Source of the DNA: a virus
Taxonomy: Duplodnaviria > Heunggongvirae > Uroviricota > Caudoviricetes
Reading direction: 5' to 3' (one strand)
Length of the DNA stretch: 42,122 nt
IMG/VR virus record: IMGVR_UViG_2541047913_000004
A program made the translations under genes and the position numbers. Positions 1 to 10,468 of this stretch are shown one piece after another; the stretch's first letter is position 1; every line of letters starts with the position of its first letter. The notes beneath the pieces were generated by a model. The model had not been told where the DNA came from. It searched no databases and saw only the letters and a program-made list of their open reading frames with translations.

Positions 1-1164
1 TTACGCCTTCTTTATATCCTCCATAATTCCACAGTGGGACATATTTGGGACATTATCACCAAAAATGTCGTCTATTTTCCTTGCATGCTCTGTCAAATGA
101 TTAGGCGCAAGGTGAGCATACCTACGAACCATTTCTATGGACTCCCATCCGCCCATTTCCTGAAGCACAGATAATGGGACGCCTGACTGGATCAGCCAGC
201 TTGCCCAGGTGTGTCTGAGGTCATGGAAACGGAAATCTTCAATTCCTGCACGACGACAAGCTGATAGCCATGATGTCTTGCTGTCGATGCGCATCTTCCT
301 GACCGCAGGCGTTGATGTTCCATCTGCTCGCTTAGCCGCCTTGGTATGTACAAACACCCATTTGTGATGCTTGCCTATTTGATCACGCAACACTTTACAG
401 GCGGTATCGTTCAGCGCCACACCAATGGCGCGGTTTGATTTGCTCTCTTCTGGATTCACCCAGGCAACTCGTCGCTGCATGTCGATTTGTTGCCATTCCA
501 GATTTATGATGTTCGACTTTCTCAGACCAGTTGCCAGCGCAAACTTGACGACAGATTTCAGTGGTTCGGGGCACTCATCAATAAGGCGTTTTGCTTCCTC
601 CTTTTCCAGCCATCTGACTCGCTTGTTTCTGACCGCTGGTATCTTGATGACAGGCGCTTTTTCCAGCCACTTCCAGTCGCGTTCTGCAGCACGGAGAATG
701 GCCTTTATCATGGCAAGATGCTTTGCCTTTGTCTGAGTTGATACTGGCTTTGGTTCATAAACAGGCGGTTCTTTACCTTTCCTGATGGCGGCCTGAACTT
801 TCTGTTTCCATATTTCTTTCGTCTTTCTGTTATGCATTCTGCTTACAGCAGAGTAAATCTTTGCCTCCGAGATATCTTTAAGCCTTATACCCTCAAAATG
901 TTCAAGCCAAAACTCAATCCGGCTTTTATCTGAATCGAGAGATTTTTTATCAGCTTTTTCCTCAAGCCATCTTAGGCAGGCCTCTTCAAAAGTGACATCA
1001 GGTAAATCCCCTAGCTTTTCTACTCGCCAGAGTTCTGCTTTTCGCTTGTCGTGCAACTCCTGAGCTTGCCGCTTGTCCTTTGTGCCAAGAGATTCCTTAA
1101 TTCGTTTCCCGCCCGGGAGCGAATACGAGGCATACCATATTTCATTTCTGCGGAAGAGTGACAT
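1..1164 (-). CDS. int: Tyrosine-type site-specific recombinase (prophage integrase), 387 aa
   Basis: Full ORF with ATG at 1162-1164 preceded by a GAGGA Shine-Dalgarno; N-terminal arm-binding-like region; C-terminal catalytic region ends ...HDLRHTWAS...VLQEMGGW...VRRYAHL, the tyrosine-recombinase R/H-x-x-R/Y signature. Sits at the prophage end as expected for int. Confidence 0.93.
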
Positions 1165-1391
1165 TTTCTTTCCTCTGTTATGCCATCACCCGCGCTCACC
1201 TGGACAGTATGCAGCGGAGACTGAAGCGCCGCAATGCAAGCTTGCCGTGTTGTGAGGTAAGGAGATTTTGGCTTGGTTGGATCTTTACGTGTTGCCTGTA
1301 GGCGGCCTGTTCGTATCCAGTTGGTGGCGGTTGGTCTGGATATCTTAAGAAACTGACAGGCCTCATCGAGTGTGAGGCTGTATGGCTCCAT
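1020..1391 (-). CDS. xis: Excisionase / AlpA-like DNA-binding protein (recombination directionality factor)
   Basis: Internal Met of ORF 1020-1475 ([31 protein letters not shown]...) is translationally coupled to the upstream gene by a TAATG overlap at 1391; HTH region typical of AlpA/Xis. The C-terminal extent is uncertain: the ORF runs 145 nt into int in another frame. Confidence 0.6.
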
Positions 1392-1696
1392 TATTTCACC
1401 TCTTGCTGTGTCATTGTTGAAAAATGGATACCAGCTCGTTGCTGCCAGACGATCCAACCGAGAGTCATATCCCATGCCATGTATTCGTTATCGCCGTTTT
1501 TTGCTCTCCGACGATCTACTAAGTCACCGAAACGCTTTTCCATGAATAATTCATAGGCTTCGCGTTCATCTGGCTCTACTTCCAGAGATACGAGTGCGAT
1601 TTCATAAGCACGGCGCTCAATATCGTCTCGAACCTCTAGGCTGCTGATTCGTTCTTTGATTTCTTTAATCAGTTCTTTATTGGTAAATGTGGTCAT
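1391..1696 (-). CDS. yfdT: Early-left operon protein, YfdT-like, 101 aa
   Basis: ORF coupled by stop/start overlap to neighbours on both sides; length and order match the CPS-53 (KplE1) yfdPQRST cluster as I recall it. Function unknown. Confidence 0.6.
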   Translation of the reverse strand: MTTFTNKELIKEIKERISSLEVRDDIERRAYEIALVSLEVEPDEREAYELFMEKRFGDLVDRRRAKNGDNEYMAWDMTLGWIVWQQRAGIHFSTMTQQEVK

Positions 1697-2058
1697 TATG
1701 CTCCAGCCTCCGGTGCTTTTGGCATTACTGCCCAGTGAGTGATATTGACGTTTTCAAGGTCCCCGACCTGAAATGTCCACTGCCATTCTCCGGTTTCTTT
1801 TTGTCCCCAGGTGTACCAGAGAGAACGCCAGCCAATCAGCCAGCCTTCTCCATTAGCATCAAATAACAGAACACTTTCATTTGCTGGTGGCAGTTCAGCT
1901 GACACTGGTATTATTTTGTTTTCCAGTGCCGCACATTTAGCTTCAAGCGCGTCGAATTTACGTACCAGGTACTCAGCATTTGTTTCGTTCACTTTCAGAT
2001 CTCGCGGTACACATTTCCCGCGAAGAAACCCTTCCATTTCGAAAACATTCATGCGCAT
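1696..2058 (-). CDS. yfdS: Early-left operon protein, YfdS-like, 120 aa
   Basis: ORF overlapping the upstream gene stop by 10 nt and the downstream start by 1 nt; length and position match CPS-53 yfdS. Confidence 0.6.
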   Translation of the reverse strand: MRMNVFEMEGFLRGKCVPRDLKVNETNAEYLVRKFDALEAKCAALENKIIPVSAELPPANESVLLFDANGEGWLIGWRSLWYTWGQKETGEWQWTFQVGDLENVNITHWAVMPKAPEAGA

Positions 2059-2585
2059 TTGCGTAACTCCGATAAATCGTTAAAACGTTCCATAAACATC
2101 CCGTAGGCATGACCCGGTGCCAGTGGAATCACGTTGAACATCTCTGTTGCCGGGATGCCTTCCAGTACAGGCCAGAAAGAGCCATCATCAAGCCCGAGAT
2201 CGCGGCGTTCGGTTGCCAGCATGATGAGATCGGCATATTTCACGGGTGTACTCATAACTGGGGGTAACCCGTATTTCTCACGGATTACGGCGTCTATTTT
2301 TTCTTCCATCCGTTTATAGTCAGGAAGAAGGCGTTTCAGTGGTGCGGGGATGTCCTGGCAATACGCTTCTGTTGCATCATGCATTAACGCTTCAAAAGCA
2401 AATTCCTGCGGCACCAGCTGGCTGCAAAGAACCGCATGTTGGGCGACGCTGTAGAAGTGCGAAAGATGACCGGCAAAGCGACAGATATTTGAAAGGGAAA
2501 CCGCGATATCGTTAATATCGATGTCGTCTTTATTTATCTTGTCATAATAAAAATGCTTCCCGGAAAAAGTTTTAATAAATGACAT
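2049..2585 (-). CDS. yfdR: HD-domain phosphohydrolase (5'-deoxynucleotidase-like), YfdR-like, 178 aa
   Basis: HD-superfamily motifs (...AQHAV... and ...LMHDATEAY...). Start moved to the internal Met (MSFIK...), which has a GGAG Shine-Dalgarno about 7 nt upstream; this gives 178 aa, the CPS-53 YfdR length. Confidence 0.8.
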   Translation of the reverse strand: MSFIKTFSGKHFYYDKINKDDIDINDIAVSLSNICRFAGHLSHFYSVAQHAVLCSQLVPQEFAFEALMHDATEAYCQDIPAPLKRLLPDYKRMEEKIDAVIREKYGLPPVMSTPVKYADLIMLATERRDLGLDDGSFWPVLEGIPATEMFNVIPLAPGHAYGMFMERFNDLSELRKCA

Positions 2586-2712
2586 TTTGTTCTCCACGTA
2601 TATGCACTGCACCGCGCTGAATTCTGGTAAAAGGATGCCCTCACCATCCGGTGATTATTGAGTTAATTACGTTTCCATAAATGCCCCCGCAGGGGCATTT
2701 GCAGTAATGAAA

Positions 2713-3537
2713 TCAGGCGGTGAAAGTACCAATAAAGGTTTCTACTTTGCTGTCTTTGAATTTCTCAACAAGCAGATCACGAAATTCGTTAGCCATTTCT
2801 TCCTGCACCGCTTCCAGCTGAATAATGCGCAGAACCAGTACAGGACGATCGCCAGTGATAATGCTGAGGCGTAATTTAAACGGACGTTCTTTCAGACCTT
2901 CAAACGGAACGCATTTAAATTCAAATGCCACTGGCATAATGTCTTTGGTCTTCGCTTCGACAGACTCCATCAGGGAGCGTTTGCCGCTGAAGTCATTATC
3001 TTCAAAATCAGCGGTCTGGTTCGCTTCAATTGTGATTTTACGGATCGCCGCAGCCGCTTTGGTTGCCTGAATGGCGTCACCATTAGCATCAAAGCCCACA
3101 AGGTAGTCGGCCCAGTCTTCAATCCATTCTGCCAGTGACTTCTGGGAGTTACGCTCGCCGTTAACAGACAACAGGGCAGAGAACGGTGCTGTCTTTTTCA
3201 GTTTGAGAGTGGCGGTGTTATCTGCGTGACCTGGTTCATCAATAGTACCCAGGTTAAGCACACTGACGGCTCGCATATTATCGGCATCGATAAAGCAGCG
3301 GGTGCCTTCATCTGCAAGATCTTTAGAATAACGGGTAAAGTCATCGATGCTGGCAGTGGAAAGCGCACCACGGAAACGGAAGCGATTTAAATTAAATTTT
3401 TCCAGATCATGAATGCGGAAATTCTCAGGCAATGCCACAGCATCGGCACCAATCTTACTGATAATTTCATTAACACCCTGAGCAGAAATAAGGGCATGGA
3501 TTTGATTAATTGCGGTTGCGTCTAAGTTCTGAGACAT
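2713..3537 (-). CDS. yfdQ: DUF2303-family prophage protein, YfdQ-like, 274 aa
   Basis: Long clean ORF with ATG at 3535-3537; length and position match CPS-53 yfdQ. Confidence 0.75.
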
Positions 3538-3602
3538 AATAAGTCCTCACTATATAAAGATATTCAGTGATGAGATAAATAATCAGTTTATTAAGAACGA
3601 TA

Positions 3603-3965
3603 TTAATGACCTGCTGCGCGTAGTTTTCCGTCAGGTTCACCGGCAAGAGTCAGTATTTGTCCATAGTCTTCCTGCAGAATAGTCAGGCGACCACCGCGAT
3701 TGACATACATCGGCGTTTCGGTGGTGTCTTCTTCGGAAATTTTCCCGCGGTTAGTTGGGCGAACATATGAGAGTTTGTGTTTGATTTTCACACGGTTCTC
3801 ATCAAACGGTTCGATTTCCAGATTGAGTGAGACCTTCCCTTTGGTTTTCGTGTTCATCACACCGGAAGCGACTTCACTGAGAACTGCGCCGATTTTGGTT
3901 TCAAATACGCCGCCGTCCAGCTCCCCGATAAATGCCTGCACATCAGTACTGCGTTCGCTAGCCAT
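3603..3965 (-). CDS. yfdP: Early-left operon protein, YfdP-like, 120 aa
   Basis: Start placed at the internal Met (MASERSTDVQAFIGELDGG...) because a GAGGAG Shine-Dalgarno lies 7 nt upstream of this ATG (3963-3965). The ORF-track extension to 4283 translates the GC-rich structured region into Arg/Cys-rich low-complexity sequence. Confidence 0.65.
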   Translation of the reverse strand: MASERSTDVQAFIGELDGGVFETKIGAVLSEVASGVMNTKTKGKVSLNLEIEPFDENRVKIKHKLSYVRPTNRGKISEEDTTETPMYVNRGGRLTILQEDYGQILTLAGEPDGKLRAAGH

Positions 3966-3989
3966 TTTGCTGCTCCTCATCATATCGAC

Positions 3990-4330
3990 CCTGCAAGGTC
4001 GGTTGGTTTCTCCACAAAACAGAGAAGAACACCTGCGGTGGCAGCCGCCCGGATGGATTGGGTTATGAGCCCGTCGTCCGGTGATGCTCTTCTCTGTTTT
4101 GTAAAAAGGACGGTACCAGCCGGAAGCAAGGGTACAAGCTGGTACCGCCAGGACTACACACAGCATAAAGTTGTGGTGCCGGGTGCCTCCCGGTGCCTGG
4201 CGAAGGTTGCACACCAGGCGGGTGGGTATCCACAGAAGGTCGACTGTCAGCCTCAACCTTAACCCGCGTGCGCTGAGCCGCATTCACCACAACGCTAAGG
4301 ATTCTCTCTGGTTGAAAATACTTAGCTGTT
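3990..4330. ncRNA. Candidate structured non-coding element (unclassified); strand undetermined
   Basis: GC-rich block with no credible ORF in any frame, packed with perfect inverted repeats: a 15-bp stem 4014-4028/4088-4102 enclosing nested hairpins (4035-4048 and 4049-4053/4077-4081); a 10-bp stem 4111-4120/4138-4147 with a 17-nt loop; hairpins at 4179-4193 and 4195-4219. Flanked by AT-rich sequence. Confidence 0.3.
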
Positions 4331-4434
4331 ATGTGCCTGCTTTTAGCCACATCAGGCGAGGTGGACCTGGTTATTCCCCAACAACAAGGATTCGGTTAAT
4401 CTGGATATCCCCAACAACAATAAGAGTATTCAAT

Positions 4435-4950
4435 GTGATCGCTGAATTAACGGCAGCAATGACGGCTATTCGTGAAACAGCCCAGATTGCAAAACTAATG
4501 AACGAGGCAAAAACTCAATCTGAAGTAAATGCGGCTATTGGTGAGCTAAACTCAAAGCTTGCGTCTATTCAGCGCGAATGCGTGTCTCTCGTTGAACTGG
4601 TGGGCTCTTATCAAGAAATAAATGCTTCTCTCAAAGCTAAAATTGCAGAATTCGAAAACTTTGAGGCTCAGACGGAAGGCTATATCCTTAACCAACTTGA
4701 GTCGGGTACTTTTGTATACTCGAAGGAGGTAATCGTGAACGGTGGCAGCATAACCATGCATCTTTGCCCAAAATGTTTTGGACAAAAGATAGTATCGATA
4801 CTTCAACCATTCCCGGTTAGCGAAGATGAGCTTTTTCATAAAAGCAGGTGCCTCCACTGTGAAAATAAGTTTCTGATGAATAAAAATCCGGATTACGTAT
4901 CGCCTCCATCCATTGAGGAGTTGTCCAGAAAACTTAACGGCAATCTGTAG
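4435..4950 (+). CDS. Hypothetical coiled-coil protein with C-terminal zinc ribbon (CPKC...24 aa...CLHC); candidate lysogenic-conversion or exclusion factor
   Basis: GTG at 4435 with an AAGAG Shine-Dalgarno-like motif about 8 nt upstream (alternative ATG at 4459). N-terminal half is heptad-like and Glu/Lys/Ala-rich; C-terminal half has two CxxC pairs. The residue composition looks like a real protein, whereas the antisense ORF is Phe/Leu/Tyr-rich. Followed by its own intrinsic terminator. Confidence 0.6.
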   Translation: MIAELTAAMTAIRETAQIAKLMNEAKTQSEVNAAIGELNSKLASIQRECVSLVELVGSYQEINASLKAKIAEFENFEAQTEGYILNQLESGTFVYSKEVIVNGGSITMHLCPKCFGQKIVSILQPFPVSEDELFHKSRCLHCENKFLMNKNPDYVSPPSIEELSRKLNGNL

Positions 4951-4989
4951 ATTACTACTGTTGTGGATATCCAGATTGTTAAAGAGCTA

Positions 4990-5012
4990 AGCGTCCTGTA
5001 GGGCGCTTTTTT
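4990..5012 (+). terminator. Rho-independent terminator of the zinc-ribbon gene
   Basis: Hairpin agcgtcc-tgta-gggcgct followed by TTTTTT. The stem has a U-G wobble on the plus-strand RNA that would be a C-A mismatch on the minus strand, so it favours the plus orientation. Confidence 0.6.
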
Positions 5013-5097
5013 GTTGCTAACGAATCATCCTGGACTTCATATGCCCCAGGCGGATACTTCGTGGGCGTCCTGCCTGTTTGTTGTTTCTCTTGGGTAC

Positions 5098-5125
5098 ATT
5101 ATGTATCTCAAAGGTACATTGTCAA
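5098..5125 (-). promoter_or_regulatory. pL-like early-left promoter with overlapping operator-like palindromes (OL)
   Basis: Minus strand has a perfect -35 TTGACA (complement of 5120-5125), a 16-nt spacer and -10 CATAAT (complement of 5098-5103). The palindrome TACAT-T-ATGTA (5095-5105) overlaps the -10, and a GGTACA motif is shared with the cI-cro intergenic operators. Confidence 0.55.
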
Positions 5126-5128
5126 GTA

Positions 5129-5150
5129 TAAAAAAACCTGCCGAAGCAGG
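5129..5150 (-). terminator. Rho-independent terminator downstream of the repressor gene
   Basis: Hairpin cctgc-cgaa-gcagg (5137-5150) followed on the minus strand by a run of 7 U (complement of 5130-5136), 15 nt after the cI stop. Confidence 0.6.
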
Positions 5151-5164
5151 TTCATAAACATTGA

Positions 5165-5839
5165 TTAAGCTTTGATTTTGTATCTTCTTGGTTTTCCTGA
5201 GAAAATCACAGTTCCAATTATAGAGCAATTACCGTTGATCTTAATGTAAGGCTCAGGCCAGTTTGGGTTTAACGCTTTGAGATAACGCTGTGTCCCATCT
5301 TCTATCAACCTTTTGAAGGTGGTTTCACCTGTATCGTGCATCAATGCAATAACGTCGTCACCGTGGCAGGCAGGTACTTCAGGATCGACAAAAATCATGT
5401 CTCCCGGGCGGTACTCATCAATCATTGAATCACCTATCACCCGCAAGATATAAGTCATTTCCCCACAGGGTACAGGGCAGGGATACGTTTCTGCTGTGCT
5501 CAAATCAACCTCAGAATATCCAACTTCTTTCCATGCTCCGGCCTGTACCCATGATATGACAGGGACTAATGTGATTTGTTTATTAGTGATTGAAACATCA
5601 GGTTTTTTTGTGATGTTCGTTGTCTGGTGTTCTTGATCGAGCCATCCGACAGGCAGGTCGAAACATTTTTCTATGTGTCGTGCCATGCTGTCACCGATAT
5701 TTTTAGTAGCACCATCTCCCATAAACCTGCTGGTCTGGGTTGGCTCGCGATCAATCATAGTGGCAAAGGAAGAATTCCCGCCAACACCATCTCTCAGTTT
5801 TCTGGCGTTAGACCGCCGGATGTCATGGATTGTTTTCAT
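5165..5839 (-). CDS. cI: CI-type prophage repressor with LexA-like S24 autopeptidase domain, 224 aa
   Basis: C-terminal domain carries the Ser nucleophile in ...VIGDSM... and a downstream Lys (...TFKRL...), as in LexA/CI self-cleaving repressors. Divergently arranged with a Cro-like gene across an operator-containing intergenic region. Confidence 0.85.
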   Translation of the reverse strand: MKTIHDIRRSNARKLRDGVGGNSSFATMIDREPTQTSRFMGDGATKNIGDSMARHIEKCFDLPVGWLDQEHQTTNITKKPDVSITNKQITLVPVISWVQAGAWKEVGYSEVDLSTAETYPCPVPCGEMTYILRVIGDSMIDEYRPGDMIFVDPEVPACHGDDVIALMHDTGETTFKRLIEDGTQRYLKALNPNWPEPYIKINGNCSIIGTVIFSGKPRRYKIKA

Positions 5840-5929
5840 AACGAAATTAAAACCCTCGTACCGTTAAGGTACAAGTATCTTGAAGGTTCATTTCAATCAT
5901 GTAATATGTACATCGGAGGTACATATTGT
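5840..5929. promoter_or_regulatory. OR-like region: pR (rightward), probable pRM (leftward), operator palindromes
   Basis: Plus strand has -35 TTGAAG (5880-5885), a 16-nt spacer and -10 TAATAT (5902-5907) ahead of a GGAGG Shine-Dalgarno and the cro ATG. Palindromes GTACC-N5-GGTAC (5858-5872), ATGTA-ATATG-TACAT (5899-5913) and TGTAC-N7-GTACA (5907-5923) overlap the promoter. Confidence 0.6.
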
Positions 5930-6130
5930 ATGAAAGCGTATTGGGACTCTTTAACCAAAGAACAGCAGGGCGAGTTGGCCGGAAAAGTTGGCTCAACACC
6001 TGGCTACTTACGGCTGGTTTTCAATGGCTATAAAAAAGCCAGTTTTGTGCTGGCTAAAAAACTTGAGCAATGCACGTCAGGTGCAATTACGAAATCTGAC
6101 TTAAGACCGGATATCTATCCGAAAGATTAG
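5930..6130 (+). CDS. cro: Cro/YdaS-like HTH regulator, 66 aa
   Basis: Small ORF divergent from cI with a GGAGG Shine-Dalgarno 9 nt upstream of the ATG; helix-turn-helix-like segment ...GSTPGYLRLVFNGYKKASF... Confidence 0.75.
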   Translation: MKAYWDSLTKEQQGELAGKVGSTPGYLRLVFNGYKKASFVLAKKLEQCTSGAITKSDLRPDIYPKD

Positions 6131-6369
6131 CAGAACACTTTCAATTTTTAACCACAGAACGATGAGGCTAATCGTGGGTAAGCATCACTGGAAAATAGAA
6201 AAACAGCCTGAGTGGTACGTGAAAGCTGTCAGAAAAACTATCGCGGCGTTGCCGGGTGGTTACGCTGAAGCGGCTGATTGGCTCGATGTAACAGAAAACG
6301 CTTTATTCAACCGCCTGAACCGCCCCGGGAATCCTGGAGACTAAACTTCCTGAGAAAGAGGTAAACAGG

Positions 6370-6696
6370 ATGACTAAAAATACTCGTTTTTCCCCCGAAG
6401 TCCGTCAACGGGCAGTCCGTATGGTTCTGGAAAGTCAGAGCGAATATGACTCACAATGGGCGACAATTTGTTCCATTGCTCCAAAGATTGGCTGTACGCC
6501 GGAGACTCTGCGTGTCTGGGTTCGCCAGCATGAGCGGGATACCGGGGGCGGTGATGGAGGGCTCACCACCGCTGAACGTCAGCGTCTGAAAGAGCTGGAA
6601 CGTGAAAATCGTGAACTGCGCCGCAGTAACGATATCCTTCGCCAGGCTTCCGCTTATTTTGCGAAGGCGGAGTTCGACCGCCTCTGGAAAAAATGA
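6370..6696 (+). CDS. IS629 OrfA (transposase N-terminal HTH protein), 108 aa
   Basis: HTH and leucine-zipper-like sequence typical of IS3-family OrfA; ends in an A6 run (6688-6693) that overlaps the orfB start. Confidence 0.9.
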
Positions 6697-7583
6697 TGCC
6701 ACTGCTGGATAAGCTGCGTGAGCAGTACGGGGTCGGACCGCTATGCAGCGAACTGCATATTGCCCCGTCAACGTATTACCACTGTCAGCAACAGCGACAT
6801 CATCCTGATAAACGCAGTGCCCGTGCGCAGCGCGATGACTGGCTGAAGAAAGAGATACAGCGCGTATACGATGAAAATCACAAGGTATACGGTGTGCGTA
6901 AAGTCTGGCGTCAGTTGTTACGGGAAGGTATCAGAGTGGCCAGATGCACTGTGGCACGTCTCATGGCGGTTATGGGACTTGCCGGTGTTCTCCGGGGTAA
7001 AAAGGTCCGTACGACCATCAGCCGGAAAGCCGTTGCCGCAGGCGACCGCGTAAACCGTCAGTTCGTGGCAGAACGACCTGACCAGCTGTGGGTGGCTGAT
7101 TTTACTTACGTCAGCACATGGCGGGGCTTCGTCTATGTGGCGTTCATCATTGATGTGTTTGCCGGATACATCGTGGGGTGGCGGGTCTCATCGTCCATGG
7201 AAACGACATTCGTGCTGGATGCACTGGAGCAGGCGTTATGGGCCCGTCGACCGTCCGGCACGGTCCATCACAGTGATAAAGGTTCTCAGTATGTATCGCT
7301 GGCCTACACACAGCGGCTTAAGGAAGCCGGATTACTGGCATCAACAGGAAGTACAGGCGACTCGTATGACAACGCGATGGCGGAGAGCATCAATGGTCTT
7401 TACAAAGCGGAGGTAATACACCGTAAGAGCTGGAAAAACCGTGCAGAAGTGGAACTGGCCACACTCACGTGGGTGGACTGGTATAACAATCGACGATTGC
7501 TGGAAAGGCTGGGCCATACTCCTCCGGCAGAAGCAGAAAAAGCTTATTATGCTTCCATCGGAAACGATGATCTGGCAGCCTGA
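6693..7583 (+). CDS. IS629 OrfB (DDE transposase catalytic domain), 296 aa
   Basis: DDE/RNase H-fold integrase-like region (...WVADFTYV... ...HSDKGSQY... ...DNAMAES...). Lies in the -1 frame relative to orfA, so an OrfAB fusion by -1 frameshifting at the A6 run is expected. Confidence 0.9.
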
Positions 7584-8034
7584 GTTCACAGATAAAACAC
7601 TCTCCAGGAAACCCGGGGCGGTTCAGCCTTCGTGCAGATGGCGATCAGATTTTCCCGCTGGGATGGGCAATGGTTTTACAGCGTGCTGGTGGCACTCACT
7701 TCATTGCTGATGCTGTGGCGCAGTCTGCAAATGGCGTCTTTGTGTCTCTTCCTGACGTCGAGGATGTGGACAACGCCGATATTAACCAGCGCCTGCTGGA
7801 AGTCATTGAACAGATCGGCAGTTATTCAAAACAGATTCGTTCAGCAATTGAAGACGGTGTAGTGGAACCGCATGAGAAGACAGCAATTAACGACGAGCTG
7901 TACCTCTCAATTTCGAAGCTGCAGGAGCATGCAGCACTGGTCTACAAAATTTTTTGCATTTCAGAAAGTAATGACGCCCGCGAGTGTGCAGCTCCGGGCG
8001 CCGTGGCGTGTCGTGACTGTGGAGAAACTAACGC

Positions 8035-8393
8035 ATGAACAGTTTAACAACACACTACCGTCGCTCGCAACTGATTGCGCTTCCTGTACCGGGTGGAAAA
8101 GCGAAGGTGGAGTATTGCTATGCAGTAAATGTACCAGGTGACAGGGAAATTGTAACCCACAGCTTTGCAGAGTGGGCTGTGGGTGATTTCAACCGGCAGA
8201 AGGAGACAGTCCTTTGCGACAAGTTAACCGCTGGTTCAAAGATCACTACGGAGTGCCCGTCAGAGTCATTCGTTGGGAGCCGGAAACACAACGTGTTATC
8301 TACCTCCGCGAAGGCTATGAGCATGAGTGCTTCAGCCCGCTCGAACAGTTTCGTCGTAAATTCAGGGAAATAGAGGTCGGTCATGAGCACTAA
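8035..8393 (+). pseudogene. Hypothetical phage gene with apparent frameshift (two-frame ORF)
   Basis: Frame A (ATG 8035) looks protein-like for about 60 codons and then degenerates. Frame B opens at 8187, has no ATG, and encodes a plausible ...[47 protein letters not shown]... tail ending at 8393. Consistent with a 1-nt indel near 8190-8225 or a sequencing error. Confidence 0.4.
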
Positions 8394-9324
8394 ATTAACC
8401 GGCTATGTATGGGATGGTTGCGCTGCATCAGGCATGAAATTATCCAGCGTGGCAATTATGGCCCGCCTGGCTGATTTCAGTAATGACGAAGGTGTGTGCT
8501 GGCCATCAATTGAAACCATTGCCCGCCAGATTGGCGCGGGGATGAGTACCGTCAGAACGGCTATCGCACGGCTGGAAGCAGAAGGCTGGTTAACGCGTAG
8601 GGCGCGTCGCCAGGGTAACCGCAATGCGTCGAATGTTTATCAGCTTAACGTTGCGAAGCTTCAGGCAGCGGCATTTTCTCAACTGTCAGATTCTGACCCG
8701 TCAAAATCTGACGCATCAAAATCTGCCCCGTCAAAATTTGATGCGTCGAAATCTGGCAAAAAAGCGGGTTTTCACCCGTCAGAATCTGGTGGGGATCCGT
8801 CAGTAAAATCAAAACATGATCCGTCAGATAAAAAAACTTCTCGTCCGGACGCTTCGCAACCGGACACGCAGACGGCTGAACAGGATTTTTTAACTCGCCA
8901 TCCTGATGCGGTTGTATTCAGCCCTAAAAAGCGCCAGTGGGGGACGCAGGATGATTTGACCTGCGCACAGTGGCTCTGGAAAAAAATCATCGCCCTGTAC
9001 GAGCATGCCGCCGAATGTGACGGCGAGGTGGTTCGTCCCAAAGAACCGAACTGGACAGCCTGGGCAAACGAAATTCGCCTGATGTGTGTGCAGGATGGTC
9101 GTACTCATAAACAAATCTGCGAGATGTACAGCCGCGTCAGTCGCGATCCGTTCTGGTGCCGTAACGTGCTCAGCCCGTCGAAGCTGCGGGAAAAATGGGA
9201 TGAGCTTTCCCTGCGCTTATCGCCGTCCGTCAGCACGTACACCGAAAAACGCGAAGACCCGTACTTCAAAGCCAGTTACGACAACGTGGACTACAGCCAG
9301 ATCCCGGCAGGATTCAGGGGGTGA
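8383..9324 (+). CDS. Replication initiator (lambda O-like, N-terminal HTH), 313 aa
   Basis: N-terminal winged-HTH-like region; the central part contains iterated DPSKSDASKS-type peptide repeats that reflect DNA iterons; occupies the O position after cro/cII. Confidence 0.8.
   Translation: MSTKLTGYVWDGCAASGMKLSSVAIMARLADFSNDEGVCWPSIETIARQIGAGMSTVRTAIARLEAEGWLTRRARRQGNRNASNVYQLNVAKLQAAAFSQLSDSDPSKSDASKSAPSKFDASKSGKKAGFHPSESGGDPSVKSKHDPSDKKTSRPDASQPDTQTAEQDFLTRHPDAVVFSPKKRQWGTQDDLTCAQWLWKKIIALYEHAAECDGEVVRPKEPNWTAWANEIRLMCVQDGRTHKQICEMYSRVSRDPFWCRNVLSPSKLREKWDELSLRLSPSVSTYTEKREDPYFKASYDNVDYSQIPAGFRG
8698..8835 (+). repeat. Replication-origin-like iterons inside the initiator gene
   Basis: About 15-bp units CCGTCAAAATCTGAC / GCATCAAAATCTGCC / CCGTCAAAATTTGAT / GCGTCGAAATCTGGC in tandem (8698-8756), with further copies at 8775-8789, 8797-8810 and 8821-8835 ending in an A-rich tract. 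Same organisation as ori-lambda inside O. Confidence 0.6.
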
Positions 9325-9815
9325 TCATGAGTCTTTTGAATGACGTTCAGAAATTCATTGAAGCCCATCCGGGGTGTACTTCCGGAGACATTGCGGATGC
9401 TTTTGCAGGTTACTCACGACAGCGCGTTCTGCAGTCAGCAAGCAAGTTACGTCAGAGTGGGCGTGTGGCTCACCGTTGTGAAGGGGATACACGCAGACAT
9501 TTCCCGCGGCTGACTGAGATACCGCAGGAGCCGGAACCGCAACCAGTTCGTGAATCCAGACCTGTGCGCAATTTCTATGTCGGCACTAACGATCCCCGGG
9601 TGATTTTGTGCCTGACCCGCCAGGCGGAAGAACTGGAGTCCAGGGGCTTATACCGTCGTGCTGCAACGGTGTGGATGGCGGCATTCCGTGAAAGCCACTC
9701 CCAGCAAGAGCGAAACAATTTTCTTGCGCGTCGTGAGCGGTGTTTACGGAAAAGCAGCAAGCGCGCTGCATCGGGTGAAGAGTGGTATCTGTCAGGGAAT
9801 TACGTGGGGGCTTAA
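9321..9815 (+). CDS. PerC-family (Pch-like) transcriptional regulator with N-terminal winged-helix-like region, 164 aa
   Basis: C-terminal segment ...LTRQAEELESRGLYRRAATVWMAAFRESHSQQERNNFLARRERCLRK... resembles the PerC/Pch regulator signature as I recall it; coupled by ATGA overlap to the replication gene. Confidence 0.55.
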   Translation: MIMSLLNDVQKFIEAHPGCTSGDIADAFAGYSRQRVLQSASKLRQSGRVAHRCEGDTRRHFPRLTEIPQEPEPQPVRESRPVRNFYVGTNDPRVILCLTRQAEELESRGLYRRAATVWMAAFRESHSQQERNNFLARRERCLRKSSKRAASGEEWYLSGNYVGA

Positions 9816-10468
9816 TGAGTAATAAATATTGCCAGGCGCTGGTGGAGCTGCGGAACAAACCAGCCCATGAACTGAAGGAAGTGGGCGATCAGTGGCGCAC
9901 GCCGGACAACATTTTCTGGGGAATTAACACCCTGTTTGGCCCGTTTGTTCTGGATCTGTTTACTGATGGTGATAACGCCAAATGCGCCGCGTATTACACT
10001 GCGGAAGACAACGCGCTGGCGCATGACTGGTCAGAACGTCTTGCGGAGCTTAAAGGTGCTGCCTTTGGTAATCCCCCGTACAGCCGCGCCAGTCAGCATG
10101 AGGGGCAATACATCACCGGCATGCGTTACATCATGAAGCATGCCAGTGCCATGCGTGATAAAGGCGGGCGCTATGTTTTCCTGATCAAAGCTGCCACCAG
10201 CGAAGTGTGGTGGCCGGAAGATGCAGACCATATTGCTTTTATTCGCGGGCGTATTGGTTTTGAACTGCCAGCCTGGTTTATCCCGAAGGACGAGAAGCAG
10301 GTGCCGACAGGCGCTTTCTTCGCTGGTGCTATTGCTGTTTTCGACAAGACCTGGAAGGGACCGGCAATCAGCTACATCGGGCGCGATGAACTTGAGGCAT
10401 GTGGTGAGGCCTTTCTGGCGCAGGTTCGCCAGCAGGCGGAAAAACTGGTCAGGGAGATGGCGGCATGA
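9815..10468 (+). CDS. Phage DNA N6-adenine methyltransferase (Dam-like), 217 aa
   Basis: NPPY catalytic motif (...FGNPPYS...); start at the internal Met coupled by TAATG to the upstream gene. Confidence 0.85.
   Translation: MSNKYCQALVELRNKPAHELKEVGDQWRTPDNIFWGINTLFGPFVLDLFTDGDNAKCAAYYTAEDNALAHDWSERLAELKGAAFGNPPYSRASQHEGQYITGMRYIMKHASAMRDKGGRYVFLIKAATSEVWWPEDADHIAFIRGRIGFELPAWFIPKDEKQVPTGAFFAGAIAVFDKTWKGPAISYIGRDELEACGEAFLAQVRQQAEKLVREMAA

What the first reader, a model, noticed from the sequence alone, without database searches (positions are those of the whole stretch)
6162..8038. IS629 has cleanly split the CII/YdaT-like gene
A complete IS629 copy (6316-7625; 1310 bp; TG...CA ends; inverted repeats; 3-bp GCC target duplication) interrupts a gene whose two halves rejoin in frame when the IS and one duplication copy are removed. 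This points to a recent insertion into an otherwise intact prophage and places the element in an IS629-bearing E. coli lineage (IS629 is abundant in O157:H7-type genomes). YdaT-type proteins are sometimes annotated as toxins, and this map position is cII-like, so the insertion may alter the lysis-lysogeny decision or polarity on the downstream replication genes. The A6 run at 6688-6693 immediately before the orfA UGA is the likely -1 frameshift site for the OrfAB transposase.
Basis: partly seen in the sequence, partly recalled or inferred. Interest (0 to 1): 0.5.

Follow-up and report, generated by a model that had tools for sequence, protein, structure and literature searches.

The report
IS629 insertion splitting prophage gene ymfL

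Summary
A full-length 1310-bp IS629 lies at 6316-7625, with TG...CA ends, 23/25 inverted repeats and a 3-bp GCC duplication. Removing it and one GCC gives a sequence 906/906 identical to the uninterrupted locus in three complete E. coli genomes, where one gene is annotated.

Four points of the interpretation need correcting.
- **Gene.** It is ymfL (96% identical to K-12 e14 YmfL; NCBIfam YmfL, Pfam Phage_CP76 "CII"). It has no detectable sequence similarity to YdaT.
- **Downstream gene.** The next gene, whose start overlaps the ymfL stop, is ymfM, the SfiC cell-division inhibitor.
- **Lineage.** This is not an O157 marker. The window matches E. coli UMEA 3201-1 exactly over the 8171 bp compared, IS629-like copies occur in 3043 of 5426 complete genomes, and O157-phage copies are less similar.
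- **Frameshift site.** The site is more likely the in-frame U_UUU at 6657-6660, 5 nt upstream of stem-loop I of an ALIL pseudoknot (Rfam, 120 bits). This motif is kept in 25/25 distinct related elements. The A6 run is kept in only 15/25 and lies 3' of that stem-loop.

The insertion looks recent: it is absent from all 5426 complete genomes. Effects on the prophage are inferred, not shown. Low interest.

The parts
5165..5839 (-). ymfK-type prophage repressor (LexA-like, S24 peptidase domain)
   Evidence: Pfam Peptidase_S24 92.8 bits. Annotated as ymfK LexA family protein in the IS-free relative.
5930..6130 (+). ymfT, Cro-position helix-turn-helix gene (YdaS family)
   Evidence: Pfam YdaS_toxin at 25.1 bits, below the cutoff of 30. 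phrog_35 transcriptional repressor. PGAP names it ymfT, YdaS family.
6162..6315 (+). 5' part of ymfL. The ORF now runs on into the IS to the stop at 6342-6344, adding NRPGNPGD.
   Evidence: The exact 56-aa product from GTG is on record as EQY01576.1 in E. coli UMEA 3201-1.
6313..6315 (.). Left copy of the 3-bp target duplication, GCC
   Evidence: The empty site in L001 has one GCC.
6316..7625 (+). IS629 (IS3 family), 1310 bp, in the same orientation as the early-right operon
   Evidence: 99.9% identical to many E. coli copies. The A6-version fusion protein is named 'IS3-like element IS629 family transposase'. NCBIfam transpos_IS3 365-370 bits.
6316..6340 (+). Left inverted repeat (IRL)
   Evidence: 23/25 match to the reverse complement of 7601-7625.
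7601..7625 (-). Right inverted repeat (IRR)
6370..6696 (+). orfA (108 aa, HTH_Tnp_1)
6630..7583 (+). orfB reading frame (-1 relative to orfA). It is open from 6630; the first ATG is at 6693. It carries the rve/DDE core.
6657..6660 (+). U_UUU tetramer (0-frame codon UUU at 6658-6660): the best-supported -1 frameshift site
   Evidence: It ends 5 nt before stem-loop I. An in-frame U_UU[U/C] is kept in 25/25 distinct ALIL-bearing relatives. U_UU.[U,C] is among the most shift-prone tetramers and is used in the IS3 family (PMC4066793). The fusion protein with this junction is on record on 379 contigs.
6651..6767 (+). ALIL frameshift-stimulating pseudoknot. Stem-loop I is at 6666-6682 and stem-loop II at 6728-6767.
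   Evidence: Rfam RF01497, 120.2 bits against a gathering score of 50. The apical loop GUUCG pairs 5/5 with the internal loop CGGAC, and these covary with GCUCG/CGAGC in relatives.
6688..6693 (+).
   Evidence: It lies 3' of stem-loop I, in the linker. It is present in only 15/25 relatives. A fusion with this junction is on record once.
7626..7628 (.). Right copy of the target duplication, GCC
7629..8038 (+). 3' part of ymfL. As a free-standing ORF it runs 7670-8038 (122 aa from an internal ATG).
   Evidence: Pfam Phage_CP76 is recorded on this fragment in UMEA 3201-1. phrog_7487 matches exactly this 122-aa piece.
8035..8373 (+). ymfM homologue (cell-division inhibitor, SfiC). Its ATG overlaps the ymfL stop (ATGA).
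   Evidence: 109/112 identical to K-12 b1148. Function from bioRxiv 10.1101/2020.11.19.390815.
8383..9324 (+). First downstream replication-type gene (HTH_36/DnaD_N-like), exposed to any polarity from the IS
   Evidence: Pfam. Same gene order in IS-free relatives.

Best explanation
**What happened.** A recent copy-out-paste-in transposition placed an intact IS629 (IS3 family) into codon 52 of ymfL. ymfL is the CII-position regulator gene of an e14/DLP12-type lambdoid prophage that starts with an intD-type integrase; IS-free relatives sit next to a tRNA-Arg gene. The host is E. coli UMEA 3201-1 or a clonal relative. The insertion duplicated GCC.

**What is shown.**
- YmfL is cut just after a stretch that looks like a helix-turn-helix motif (not confirmed by any model). 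What remains is a 56/60-aa N-terminal peptide and a promoterless 122-aa C-terminal ORF.
- The element itself is intact. Its transposase OrfAB is made by -1 frameshifting, most probably at U_UUU (6657-6660), stimulated by the ALIL pseudoknot.

**What is inferred.**
- The CII-like function is lost.
- Expression of the overlapping ymfM and of the downstream replication and Q genes is probably reduced. Early-right transcripts must now cross 1.3 kb in which most ribosomes stop at the orfA UGA.
- The prophage would then be less able to establish lysogeny or to complete induction.
- Precise excision, which the IEE protein promotes for this IS, would restore the wild-type allele exactly.
For: - **Anatomy.** Boundaries, inverted repeats, duplication and in-frame rejoin.
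- **Empty site.** It is 906/906 identical, with a single GCC and one annotated ymfL gene.
- **Gene identity.** NCBIfam phage_reg_YmfL 169.8 bits (cutoff 90), Pfam Phage_CP76 51.4 bits, phrog_101 'CII-like transcriptional activator', 96% identity to K-12 YmfL.
- **Downstream gene.** YmfM, 97% identical to K-12.
- **Source.** 8171/8171 identity to UMEA 3201-1, including the IS.
- **Recency.**
  - No complete genome has this junction.
  - The whole of ymfL is identical to an IS-free allele.
  - The IS differs from its nearest copies by one synonymous base.
- **Prophage otherwise intact.** There are 12 mismatches in 24,375 bp against the N51 prophage, which has no pseudogene flags. The tail ORFs are full length.
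- **Frameshift signals.**, and PMC4066793 and PMC5009743.
- **Known biology.** IS629 insertion in prophages is common: 62% of the sites in four O157 genomes (PMC3271280). IEE-dependent precise excision is described in bioRxiv 10.1101/2023.06.07.543989 and PMC9397093.
Against: - No expression or phenotype data exist for this locus, so polarity and loss of induction are inference. A consensus scan found no strong terminator inside the IS; there is only one weak terminator-like site at 7083-7098.
- YmfL has no demonstrated function in any phage. Its over-expression in K-12 gave no filamentation phenotype.
- The A6 run cannot be excluded as a secondary shift site. One relative (L039) has a -1 frame stop between the U-run and the A-run, and NCBI holds one protein built on the A6 junction.
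- Whether the host carries iee is unknown.
Confidence: 0.9

Rival explanations
1. The two flanking ORFs are normally separate genes, and the in-frame rejoin is coincidental.
For: PHROGs holds separate families for each half: phrog_8690 for the N part and phrog_7487 for the 122-aa C part.
Against: - 1302 complete genomes carry at least 80% of the IS-deleted locus, and one 183-aa ymfL is annotated in every IS-free relative read here.
- The rejoined protein is full length against NCBIfam YmfL and phrog_101 and 96% identical to K-12 YmfL.
- The half-families are most simply collections of interrupted or contig-end copies.
Confidence: 0.01
2. The insertion is an assembly artefact: a repeat copy of IS629 mis-placed into ymfL.
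For: IS629 is multi-copy in many genomes, and draft assemblies often break or mis-join at IS copies. The source is a scaffold-level assembly.
Against: - A perfect 3-bp duplication of a sequence that is single in the empty site is the signature of real transposition.
- The left junction is also present in an independent Logan assembly of run SRR958631.
- This IS copy carries a private SNP.
Confidence: 0.03
3. The insertion is old and inherited, part of a long-degraded cryptic prophage, rather than recent.
For: - Related prophages carry IS629-family insertions in or near ymfL (IAI39, ETEC1706, strain 2-1).
- The left arm of this prophage family carries a frameshifted hypothetical gene and a truncated HTH gene.
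Against: - Those insertions are at different positions with different duplications (GAT, CTC), so they are independent events.
- This junction is in none of the 5426 complete genomes.
- The flanks show no divergence from an IS-free allele across the whole gene.
- The IS ORFs and the duplication are intact.
Confidence: 0.05
4. OrfAB is made by -1 slippage on the A6 run (6688-6693) with the UGA in the A site.
For: - A_AA.A is a usable tetramer (PMC4066793).
- The run sits inside the orfA/orfB overlap directly before a stop.
- NCBI has a protein built on this junction, WP_085959878.1.
- In L039 only this site would give an open fusion.
Against: - The run lies 3' of stem-loop I of the ALIL stimulator, whereas such stimulators act from 4-10 nt downstream of the shift site (PMC4066793, PMC5009743).
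- It is absent from 10/25 ALIL-bearing relatives, all of which keep the in-frame U_UU[U/C] 5 nt upstream of stem-loop I.
- The U-run fusion is the version on record on 379 contigs, and it scores 5 bits higher against the IS3 model.
Confidence: 0.2

Closest known systems
IS629 (isoforms IS1203, IS3411), IS3 family
   Same: - 1310 bp, TG...CA ends, about 25-bp inverted repeats and a 3-bp duplication.
- orfA and orfB in frames 0 and -1, with an rve/DDE core and an ALIL frameshift stimulator.
- 99.0-99.9% identical to the best-matching phage and genome copies listed, among them records annotated IS629.
- Insertion into prophage genes is its usual habit (PMC3271280).
   Different: Nothing of substance. 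This copy has one private synonymous base (window 6806). It is closer to copies in non-O157 strains than to O157 Stx-phage copies.
YmfL of the K-12 cryptic prophage e14 (b1147); Pfam Phage_CP76, the phage 186 CII family
   Same: - 96% identity to K-12 YmfL.
- The same repressor(ymfK)-ymfT-ymfL-ymfM gene order.
- Passes the NCBIfam YmfL and Pfam CP76 cutoffs.
   Different: - Here the gene is interrupted.
- The prophage is a full-size lambdoid with an intD-type integrase, not the e14 remnant; IS-free relatives sit beside a tRNA-Arg gene.
- CII-like activity of YmfL itself has never been shown.
YdaT of the Rac and CP-933P prophages (functional equivalent of lambda CII; PMC9986795)
   Same: It has the same map position, the second gene of the early-right operon after a YdaS-family Cro-like gene. 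It is presumably a regulator.
   Different: There is no detectable sequence similarity (BLASTP E=11, no Pfam YdaT hit). Fold-level similarity could not be tested because the model had pLDDT 39.7.
IS629/IS1203 insertions in the early-right region of related prophages (IAI39, ETEC1706, strain 2-1, NCCP 13914, SW070919, MS8345)
   Same: The same IS family and the same orientation as the operon. Three of the insertions are inside ymfL, within 70 bp of one another.
   Different: The positions and target duplications differ, so these are independent events. None is the window's insertion.

Membership tests
IS629 / IS3 family insertion sequence | Length about 1.3 kb with imperfect terminal inverted repeats ending 5'-TG...CA-3' | tested here: met
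   1310 bp; 23/25 inverted repeats; TG/CA ends.
IS629 / IS3 family insertion sequence | 3-bp direct target duplication, verified against an empty site | tested here: met
   GCC flanks both ends. There is a single GCC in the IS-free allele of 2013C-3181.
IS629 / IS3 family insertion sequence | orfA (HTH) and orfB (DDE/rve) in relative frames 0 and -1 | tested here: met
   HTH_Tnp_1; rve, HTH_21 and rve_3. The orfB frame is -1 and open from 6630. NCBIfam transpos_IS3 scores 365-370 bits against a cutoff of 160.
IS629 / IS3 family insertion sequence | Near-identity to elements curated as IS629 | tested here: met
   99.0-99.9% identical to the best phage records, two of which (LC567824, LC567828; 99.2% and 99.4%) are annotated 'IS3 family IS629'. 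The A6-version fusion is named 'IS3-like element IS629 family transposase'. ISfinder itself was not available.
IS629 / IS3 family insertion sequence | Transposition activity of this copy | not testable with these tools
   The ORFs are intact and identical to a protein on record on 379 contigs. Activity needs an experiment.
ALIL frameshift-stimulating pseudoknot (Rfam RF01497) | Covariance-model score above the gathering threshold | tested here: met
   120.2 bits against 50, full length 1-117.
ALIL frameshift-stimulating pseudoknot (Rfam RF01497) | Apical loop of stem-loop I complementary to the internal loop of stem-loop II, with covariation | tested here: met
   GUUCG/CGGAC pairs 5/5 in the window. 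It covaries with GCUCG/CGAGC. 16/25 distinct relatives pair 5/5 and the rest 4/5.
ALIL frameshift-stimulating pseudoknot (Rfam RF01497) | Slippery motif in the 0 frame 4-10 nt upstream of stem-loop I | tested here: met
   U_UUU at 6657-6660 ends 5 nt before 6666. It is kept in 25/25 relatives. The spacing rule is from PMC4066793.
YmfL / Phage_CP76 (phage 186 CII-type regulator) | Profile match above the curated cutoffs | tested here: met
   NF041471 169.8 bits (cutoff 90). PF06892 51.4 bits (cutoff 26). phrog_101 237.6 bits.
YmfL / Phage_CP76 (phage 186 CII-type regulator) | Position after the Cro-like gene, divergent from the repressor, followed by ymfM | tested here: met
   The order ymfK(-) ymfT ymfL ymfM is the same as in K-12 e14.
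YmfL / Phage_CP76 (phage 186 CII-type regulator) | Transcriptional activation of a lysogeny promoter | not testable with these tools
   No functional data for YmfL were found. Over-expression does not cause filamentation.
YdaT (Pfam YdaT_toxin; POU-like CII equivalent) | Sequence similarity to YdaT | tested here: not met
   No Pfam hit at E<=0.01. BLASTP against K-12 YdaT gives E=11. No YdaT chain appears among PDB sequence hits at E<=10.
YdaT (Pfam YdaT_toxin; POU-like CII equivalent) | POU-like fold plus tetramerising helix | tested here: inconclusive
   The single-sequence AlphaFold model has pLDDT 39.7 and is unusable for fold search.

The most novel reading that the evidence does not exclude
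The early-right segment (ymfL-ymfM-replication genes) of e14/DLP12-type prophages may be a recurrent, orientation-biased landing zone for IS629-family elements.

- All seven independent insertions seen here point the same way as the operon.
- Three lie within 70 bp inside ymfL.
- The window's copy abuts an 8/9 copy of its own left end.

This could reflect one of three things:
- selection for silencing ymfM and prophage replication (domestication);
- end-like target capture;
- coupling of transposase expression to the SOS-inducible phage promoter by read-through.
Probability: 0.15. Interest if true: 0.35.

Novelty: already known. Interest (0 to 1): 0.12.

Why it matters
The practical value is mostly in annotation.
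- The two small ORFs at 6162-6344 and 7670-8038 are fragments of ymfL and should not be treated as genes. PHROGs already holds families made of such halves.
- The insertion is a strain-specific marker for UMEA 3201-1-like isolates.
- It may have disabled a CII-like regulator and dampened the SOS-inducible division inhibitor ymfM and prophage replication, which is one ordinary route by which prophages become locked in.
- IS629/IS3411-type elements most probably frameshift at the conserved U_UUU upstream of the ALIL pseudoknot, not at the eye-catching A6 run. This is relevant to how their transposases are annotated; NCBI holds both versions.

None of this opens a new question.

Tried and rejected
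- **Sequence link to YdaT.** Tested with Pfam, BLASTP and PDB sequences; none found.
- **Fold-level comparison.** Abandoned. The single-sequence AlphaFold model of YmfL had pLDDT 39.7.
- **Mazauric et al. 2008 (ALIL in IS3411).** Not held in the library. The supplements of PMC4066793 do not list the IS3411 motif. The shift site therefore rests on my comparative analysis and on general rules from PMC4066793 and PMC5009743.
- **Promoter and terminator scan of 5700-8500.**
  - It found no sigma-70-like site, not even the expected early promoters, so the scan is uninformative here.
  - It found only weak terminator-like hairpins.
- **Hot spot in ymfL.** Considered and not claimed. Two or three insertions among several thousand genomes is not clearly more than expected, given thousands of IS629 insertion events and the known enrichment in prophages (PMC3271280). 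I could not enumerate all split ymfL copies with the tools.
- **Phage collection.** It has no record with an IS in ymfL.
- **'100.0%' identities.** Rechecked base by base: 3 mismatches in 1-6315 against 2013C-3181, and 12 in 7626-32000 against N51.
Full report
**1. The observation**

The stretch 6316-7625 is exactly 1310 bp. It begins TGAACCGCCCCGGG and ends with the reverse complement of that sequence. The first 25 bases of the two ends match as inverted repeats at 23 positions. GCC lies directly outside both ends (6313-6315 and 7626-7628).

Joining 6162-6315 to 7629-8038 gives a 564-nt open frame of 187 aa. The element is 99.9% identical over its full length to IS3-family copies in E. coli. 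Matches covering at least 80% of it occur in 3043 of 5426 complete genomes. No other IS629 end is present in the window.

The decisive control is the empty site. The flanks with the IS and one GCC removed (906 bp) are 100% identical to the chromosomes of strains 2013C-3181, 2013C-4282 and STLEFF_29. 1302 genomes hold at least 80% of this IS-deleted locus in one place. In 2013C-3181 the site reads ...CAACCGCC|TTCGTGCAG... with a single GCC, and one gene, ymfL (183 aa from a GTG that corresponds to window 6174), is annotated across it.

**2. The interrupted gene**

- The rejoined protein passes NCBIfam NF041471 'YmfL family putative regulatory protein' (169.8 bits, cutoff 90).
- It passes Pfam PF06892 Phage_CP76 'phage regulatory protein CII' (51.4 bits, cutoff 26).
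- It matches phrog_101 'CII-like transcriptional activator' over its full length.
- It is 96% identical to YmfL (b1147) of the K-12 cryptic prophage e14.

The neighbours are the e14-type set. There is a LexA-like repressor ymfK on the opposite strand (5165-5839) and a YdaS-family Cro-position gene ymfT (5930-6130).

Directly downstream is an ORF at 8035-8373 whose ATG overlaps the ymfL stop (ATGA). It is 109/112 identical to K-12 YmfM. YmfM is the SOS-inducible, FtsZ-ring-blocking division inhibitor responsible for the SfiC phenotype. In the same study, ymfL over-expression did not cause filamentation (bioRxiv 10.1101/2020.11.19.390815).

The label 'YdaT-like' is not supported by sequence. There is no Pfam YdaT hit, BLASTP against K-12 YdaT gives E=11, and no YdaT chain appears among PDB sequence hits. 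YdaT is a positional and functional analogue of CII in other prophages (PMC9986795, PMC5917428), so the resemblance is one of map position only. A fold-level test failed because the single-sequence model was unusable (pLDDT 39.7).

**3. Origin of the window and age of the insertion**

The window starts with an intD-type integrase (1-1164) and runs through a complete-looking lambdoid gene set to the tail-fibre genes. In IS-free relatives the same prophage sits next to a tRNA-Arg gene beside fimZ.

Comparison with other genomes:
- Window 1-6315 differs at 3 positions from 2013C-3181.
- The whole of ymfL, and the sequence on to 8278, is identical to that strain.
- Window 7626-32000 differs at 12 positions from strain N51, and 7 of those lie in 7636-7714. 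The window is therefore a mosaic of known prophage segments, with a joint inside ymfL.
- The N51 segment carries no pseudogene flags over 24 kb.
- The tail genes in 32-42 kb have full-length ORFs matching an annotated relative.

No complete genome carries this insertion. A 2.5-kb query and a 70-bp left-junction query both found none.

The exact N-terminal fusion peptide (56 aa, ending ...[12 protein letters not shown]) and the 122-aa C-terminal fragment are both on record from E. coli UMEA 3201-1. The scaffold of that strain is 8171/8171 identical to window 2174-10344, including the IS. An independent assembly of run SRR958631 contains the left junction.

The IS differs from the copies in MS8345 by one synonymous base, and from the IAI39 copy by two. 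Copies in Stx phages of O157 are 99.0-99.5% identical.

The insertion is therefore real, private to this strain background and recent. IS629 presence does not point to an O157:H7-type lineage.

**4. The element and its frameshift**

orfA (6370-6696, HTH_Tnp_1) and orfB (rve core) are intact. orfB is in the -1 frame and open from 6630.

Rfam finds a full-length ALIL pseudoknot at 6651-6767 (120.2 bits against a gathering score of 50). Stem-loop I is the 17-nt hairpin at 6666-6682, and stem-loop II is at 6728-6767. The apical loop GUUCG is fully complementary to the internal loop CGGAC.

The IS3-family rule used by Sharma et al. is 4-10 nt, and they list IS3411 as having the smallest hairpin of their 20-element set, whose sizes start at 17 nt (PMC4066793). 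[quoted passage not shown]

Five nucleotides upstream of stem-loop I is an in-frame U_UUU (6657-6660; codon UUU at 6658-6660). U_UU.[U,C] is among the three most shift-prone tetramers and is used in the IS3 family.

I fetched relatives of the transposase from other species (49-98% identity) and located ALIL in them.
- All 25 distinct full-register sequences keep an in-frame U_UU[U/C] at that position.
- Only 15, the enterobacterial IS629-like subgroup, have an A run before the orfA stop.
- The loop and internal-loop pairs covary.

NCBI holds both possible fusion proteins. The U-run version (...[16 protein letters not shown]...) is on 379 contigs, and the A6 version (...LWKKMMPLL...) is on one. 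The U-run version scores 370.2 bits against the IS3 model and the A6 version 365.3.

One relative (L039) has a -1 frame stop between the two motifs, so the A run cannot be dismissed as a secondary site. I put about 0.75 on U_UUU as the programmed site and about 0.2 on A6. I could not read the primary paper.

**5. Likely consequences (inference)**

The insertion falls right after the stretch YAEAADWLDVTENALFNRL, which looks like a helix-turn-helix motif. That reading comes from the sequence alone; the structural model is too poor to confirm it. It separates this stretch from the C-terminal two thirds of the protein, so the CII-like function is very probably lost.

Transcripts from the early-right promoter must now cross the IS. 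Most ribosomes will stop at the orfA UGA, leaving about 0.9 kb untranslated. ymfM has also lost the upstream translation that its overlapping start suggests it depends on. Reduced expression of ymfM, the replication genes and the Q antiterminator is therefore plausible, but it was not tested. The consensus scan found no convincing terminator.

IS629 insertion into prophage genes is common (62% of the sites in four O157 genomes; PMC3271280). IEE-dependent precise excision can reverse such insertions (bioRxiv 10.1101/2023.06.07.543989; PMC9397093). Here it would regenerate an allele identical to that of 2013C-3181.

**6. Comparison with what is known, and verdict**

Every component is a known entity:
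- IS629, with its ALIL frameshift signal;
- ymfL and ymfM;
- an e14/DLP12-type lambdoid prophage.

The event type is textbook. The sequence is already public, although the fragments there are annotated as a hypothetical protein and a 'phage transcriptional regulator'.

Related prophages show independent IS629-family insertions in ymfL:
- IAI39, 22 bp downstream, with duplication GAT;
- ETEC1706, 69 bp downstream, with duplication CTC, carrying an IS1203-type element 96.1% identical to the window's IS.

They also show insertions just upstream of ymfL, in ymfM, in a Rha gene and in the replication gene. All are in the orientation of the operon. I do not claim a hot spot, because the numbers are small and prophage enrichment is already known.

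Interest is low. The useful outputs are the corrected gene identity, the missed ymfM, the source strain and the re-assigned frameshift site.

Noticed in passing
window 6307-6324: The 9 bp of ymfL directly left of the IS (TCAACCGCC) are an 8/9 direct copy of the first 9 bp of the IS (TGAACCGCC). About 44 other IS629-like insertions in fetched loci have at most 5/9. The chance of 8/9 or better at one abutting flank is about 1e-4. This may reflect insertion next to end-like sequences, which from my own recollection (no source checked) has been reported for IS911, another IS3-family member.
   Followed up: partly
L002, L003, L004, L008, L010, L011 and window 6316-7625: Seven independent IS629/IS1203 insertions lie in the early-right region of related prophages: three in ymfL within 70 bp, one just 5' of ymfL, and one each in ymfM, a Rha gene and the replication gene. 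All have the transposase in the same direction as the operon (two-sided binomial p about 0.016 if independent). No census was done.
   Followed up: partly
window 8035-8373 and 8214-8393: The ymfM homologue (97% identical to K-12) overlaps a DUF4222 ORF in another frame. PGAP annotates only DUF4222 in the closest relatives (2013C-3181, N51) but annotates ymfM in K-12 and NCCP 13914. So ymfM goes unannotated in at least these two relatives, and possibly in many genomes.
   Followed up: partly
window 6162-6344 and 7670-8038: PHROGs v4 has separate families that match only the N-terminal part (phrog_8690) and exactly the 122-aa C-terminal part (phrog_7487) of YmfL, besides the full-length phrog_101. 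These look like families built from interrupted or truncated copies.
   Followed up: no
window 7636-7714: Seven of the twelve differences between the window (7626-32000) and the N51 prophage cluster here, and N51's ymfL 5' half and immunity genes differ. The window is identical to 2013C-3181 up to 8278 and diverges after that. A mosaic recombination joint therefore lies inside or next to ymfL, close to the IS site.
   Followed up: partly
window 6654-6660 and 6687-6693: In the minimum-free-energy fold of 6640-6775, the U-rich shift region (UUAUUUU) pairs with the A6 run (GAAAAAA), extending stem-loop I. The whole fold is not more stable than shuffles (z = -0.97). It is unknown whether this competes with or modulates the ALIL structure.
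   Followed up: no
L039 (Martelella alba contig), about 682-740: An IS629-like element, 81% identical at protein level, in an alphaproteobacterium has a TTC-to-TTT change in the stem-loop I loop. This creates a -1 frame TGA between the U-run and the A6 run. In that copy only a shift at the A run could give a fusion, or else the copy is defective.
   Followed up: no
window 1196-1391 (- strand): PGAP marks a 66-nt 'helix-turn-helix domain-containing protein, incomplete' next to the integrase in relatives. In the window, an excisionase-like HTH sequence ([33 protein letters not shown]...) is open for much longer and overlaps the int start. Whether the excisionase is intact is unclear, and this bears on whether the prophage can excise.
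   Followed up: no
window 3980-4290: The corresponding gene in IS-free relatives is flagged 'hypothetical protein, frameshifted' by PGAP (L001 6081-6391). The prophage family therefore carries at least one shared defect unrelated to the IS.
   Followed up: no
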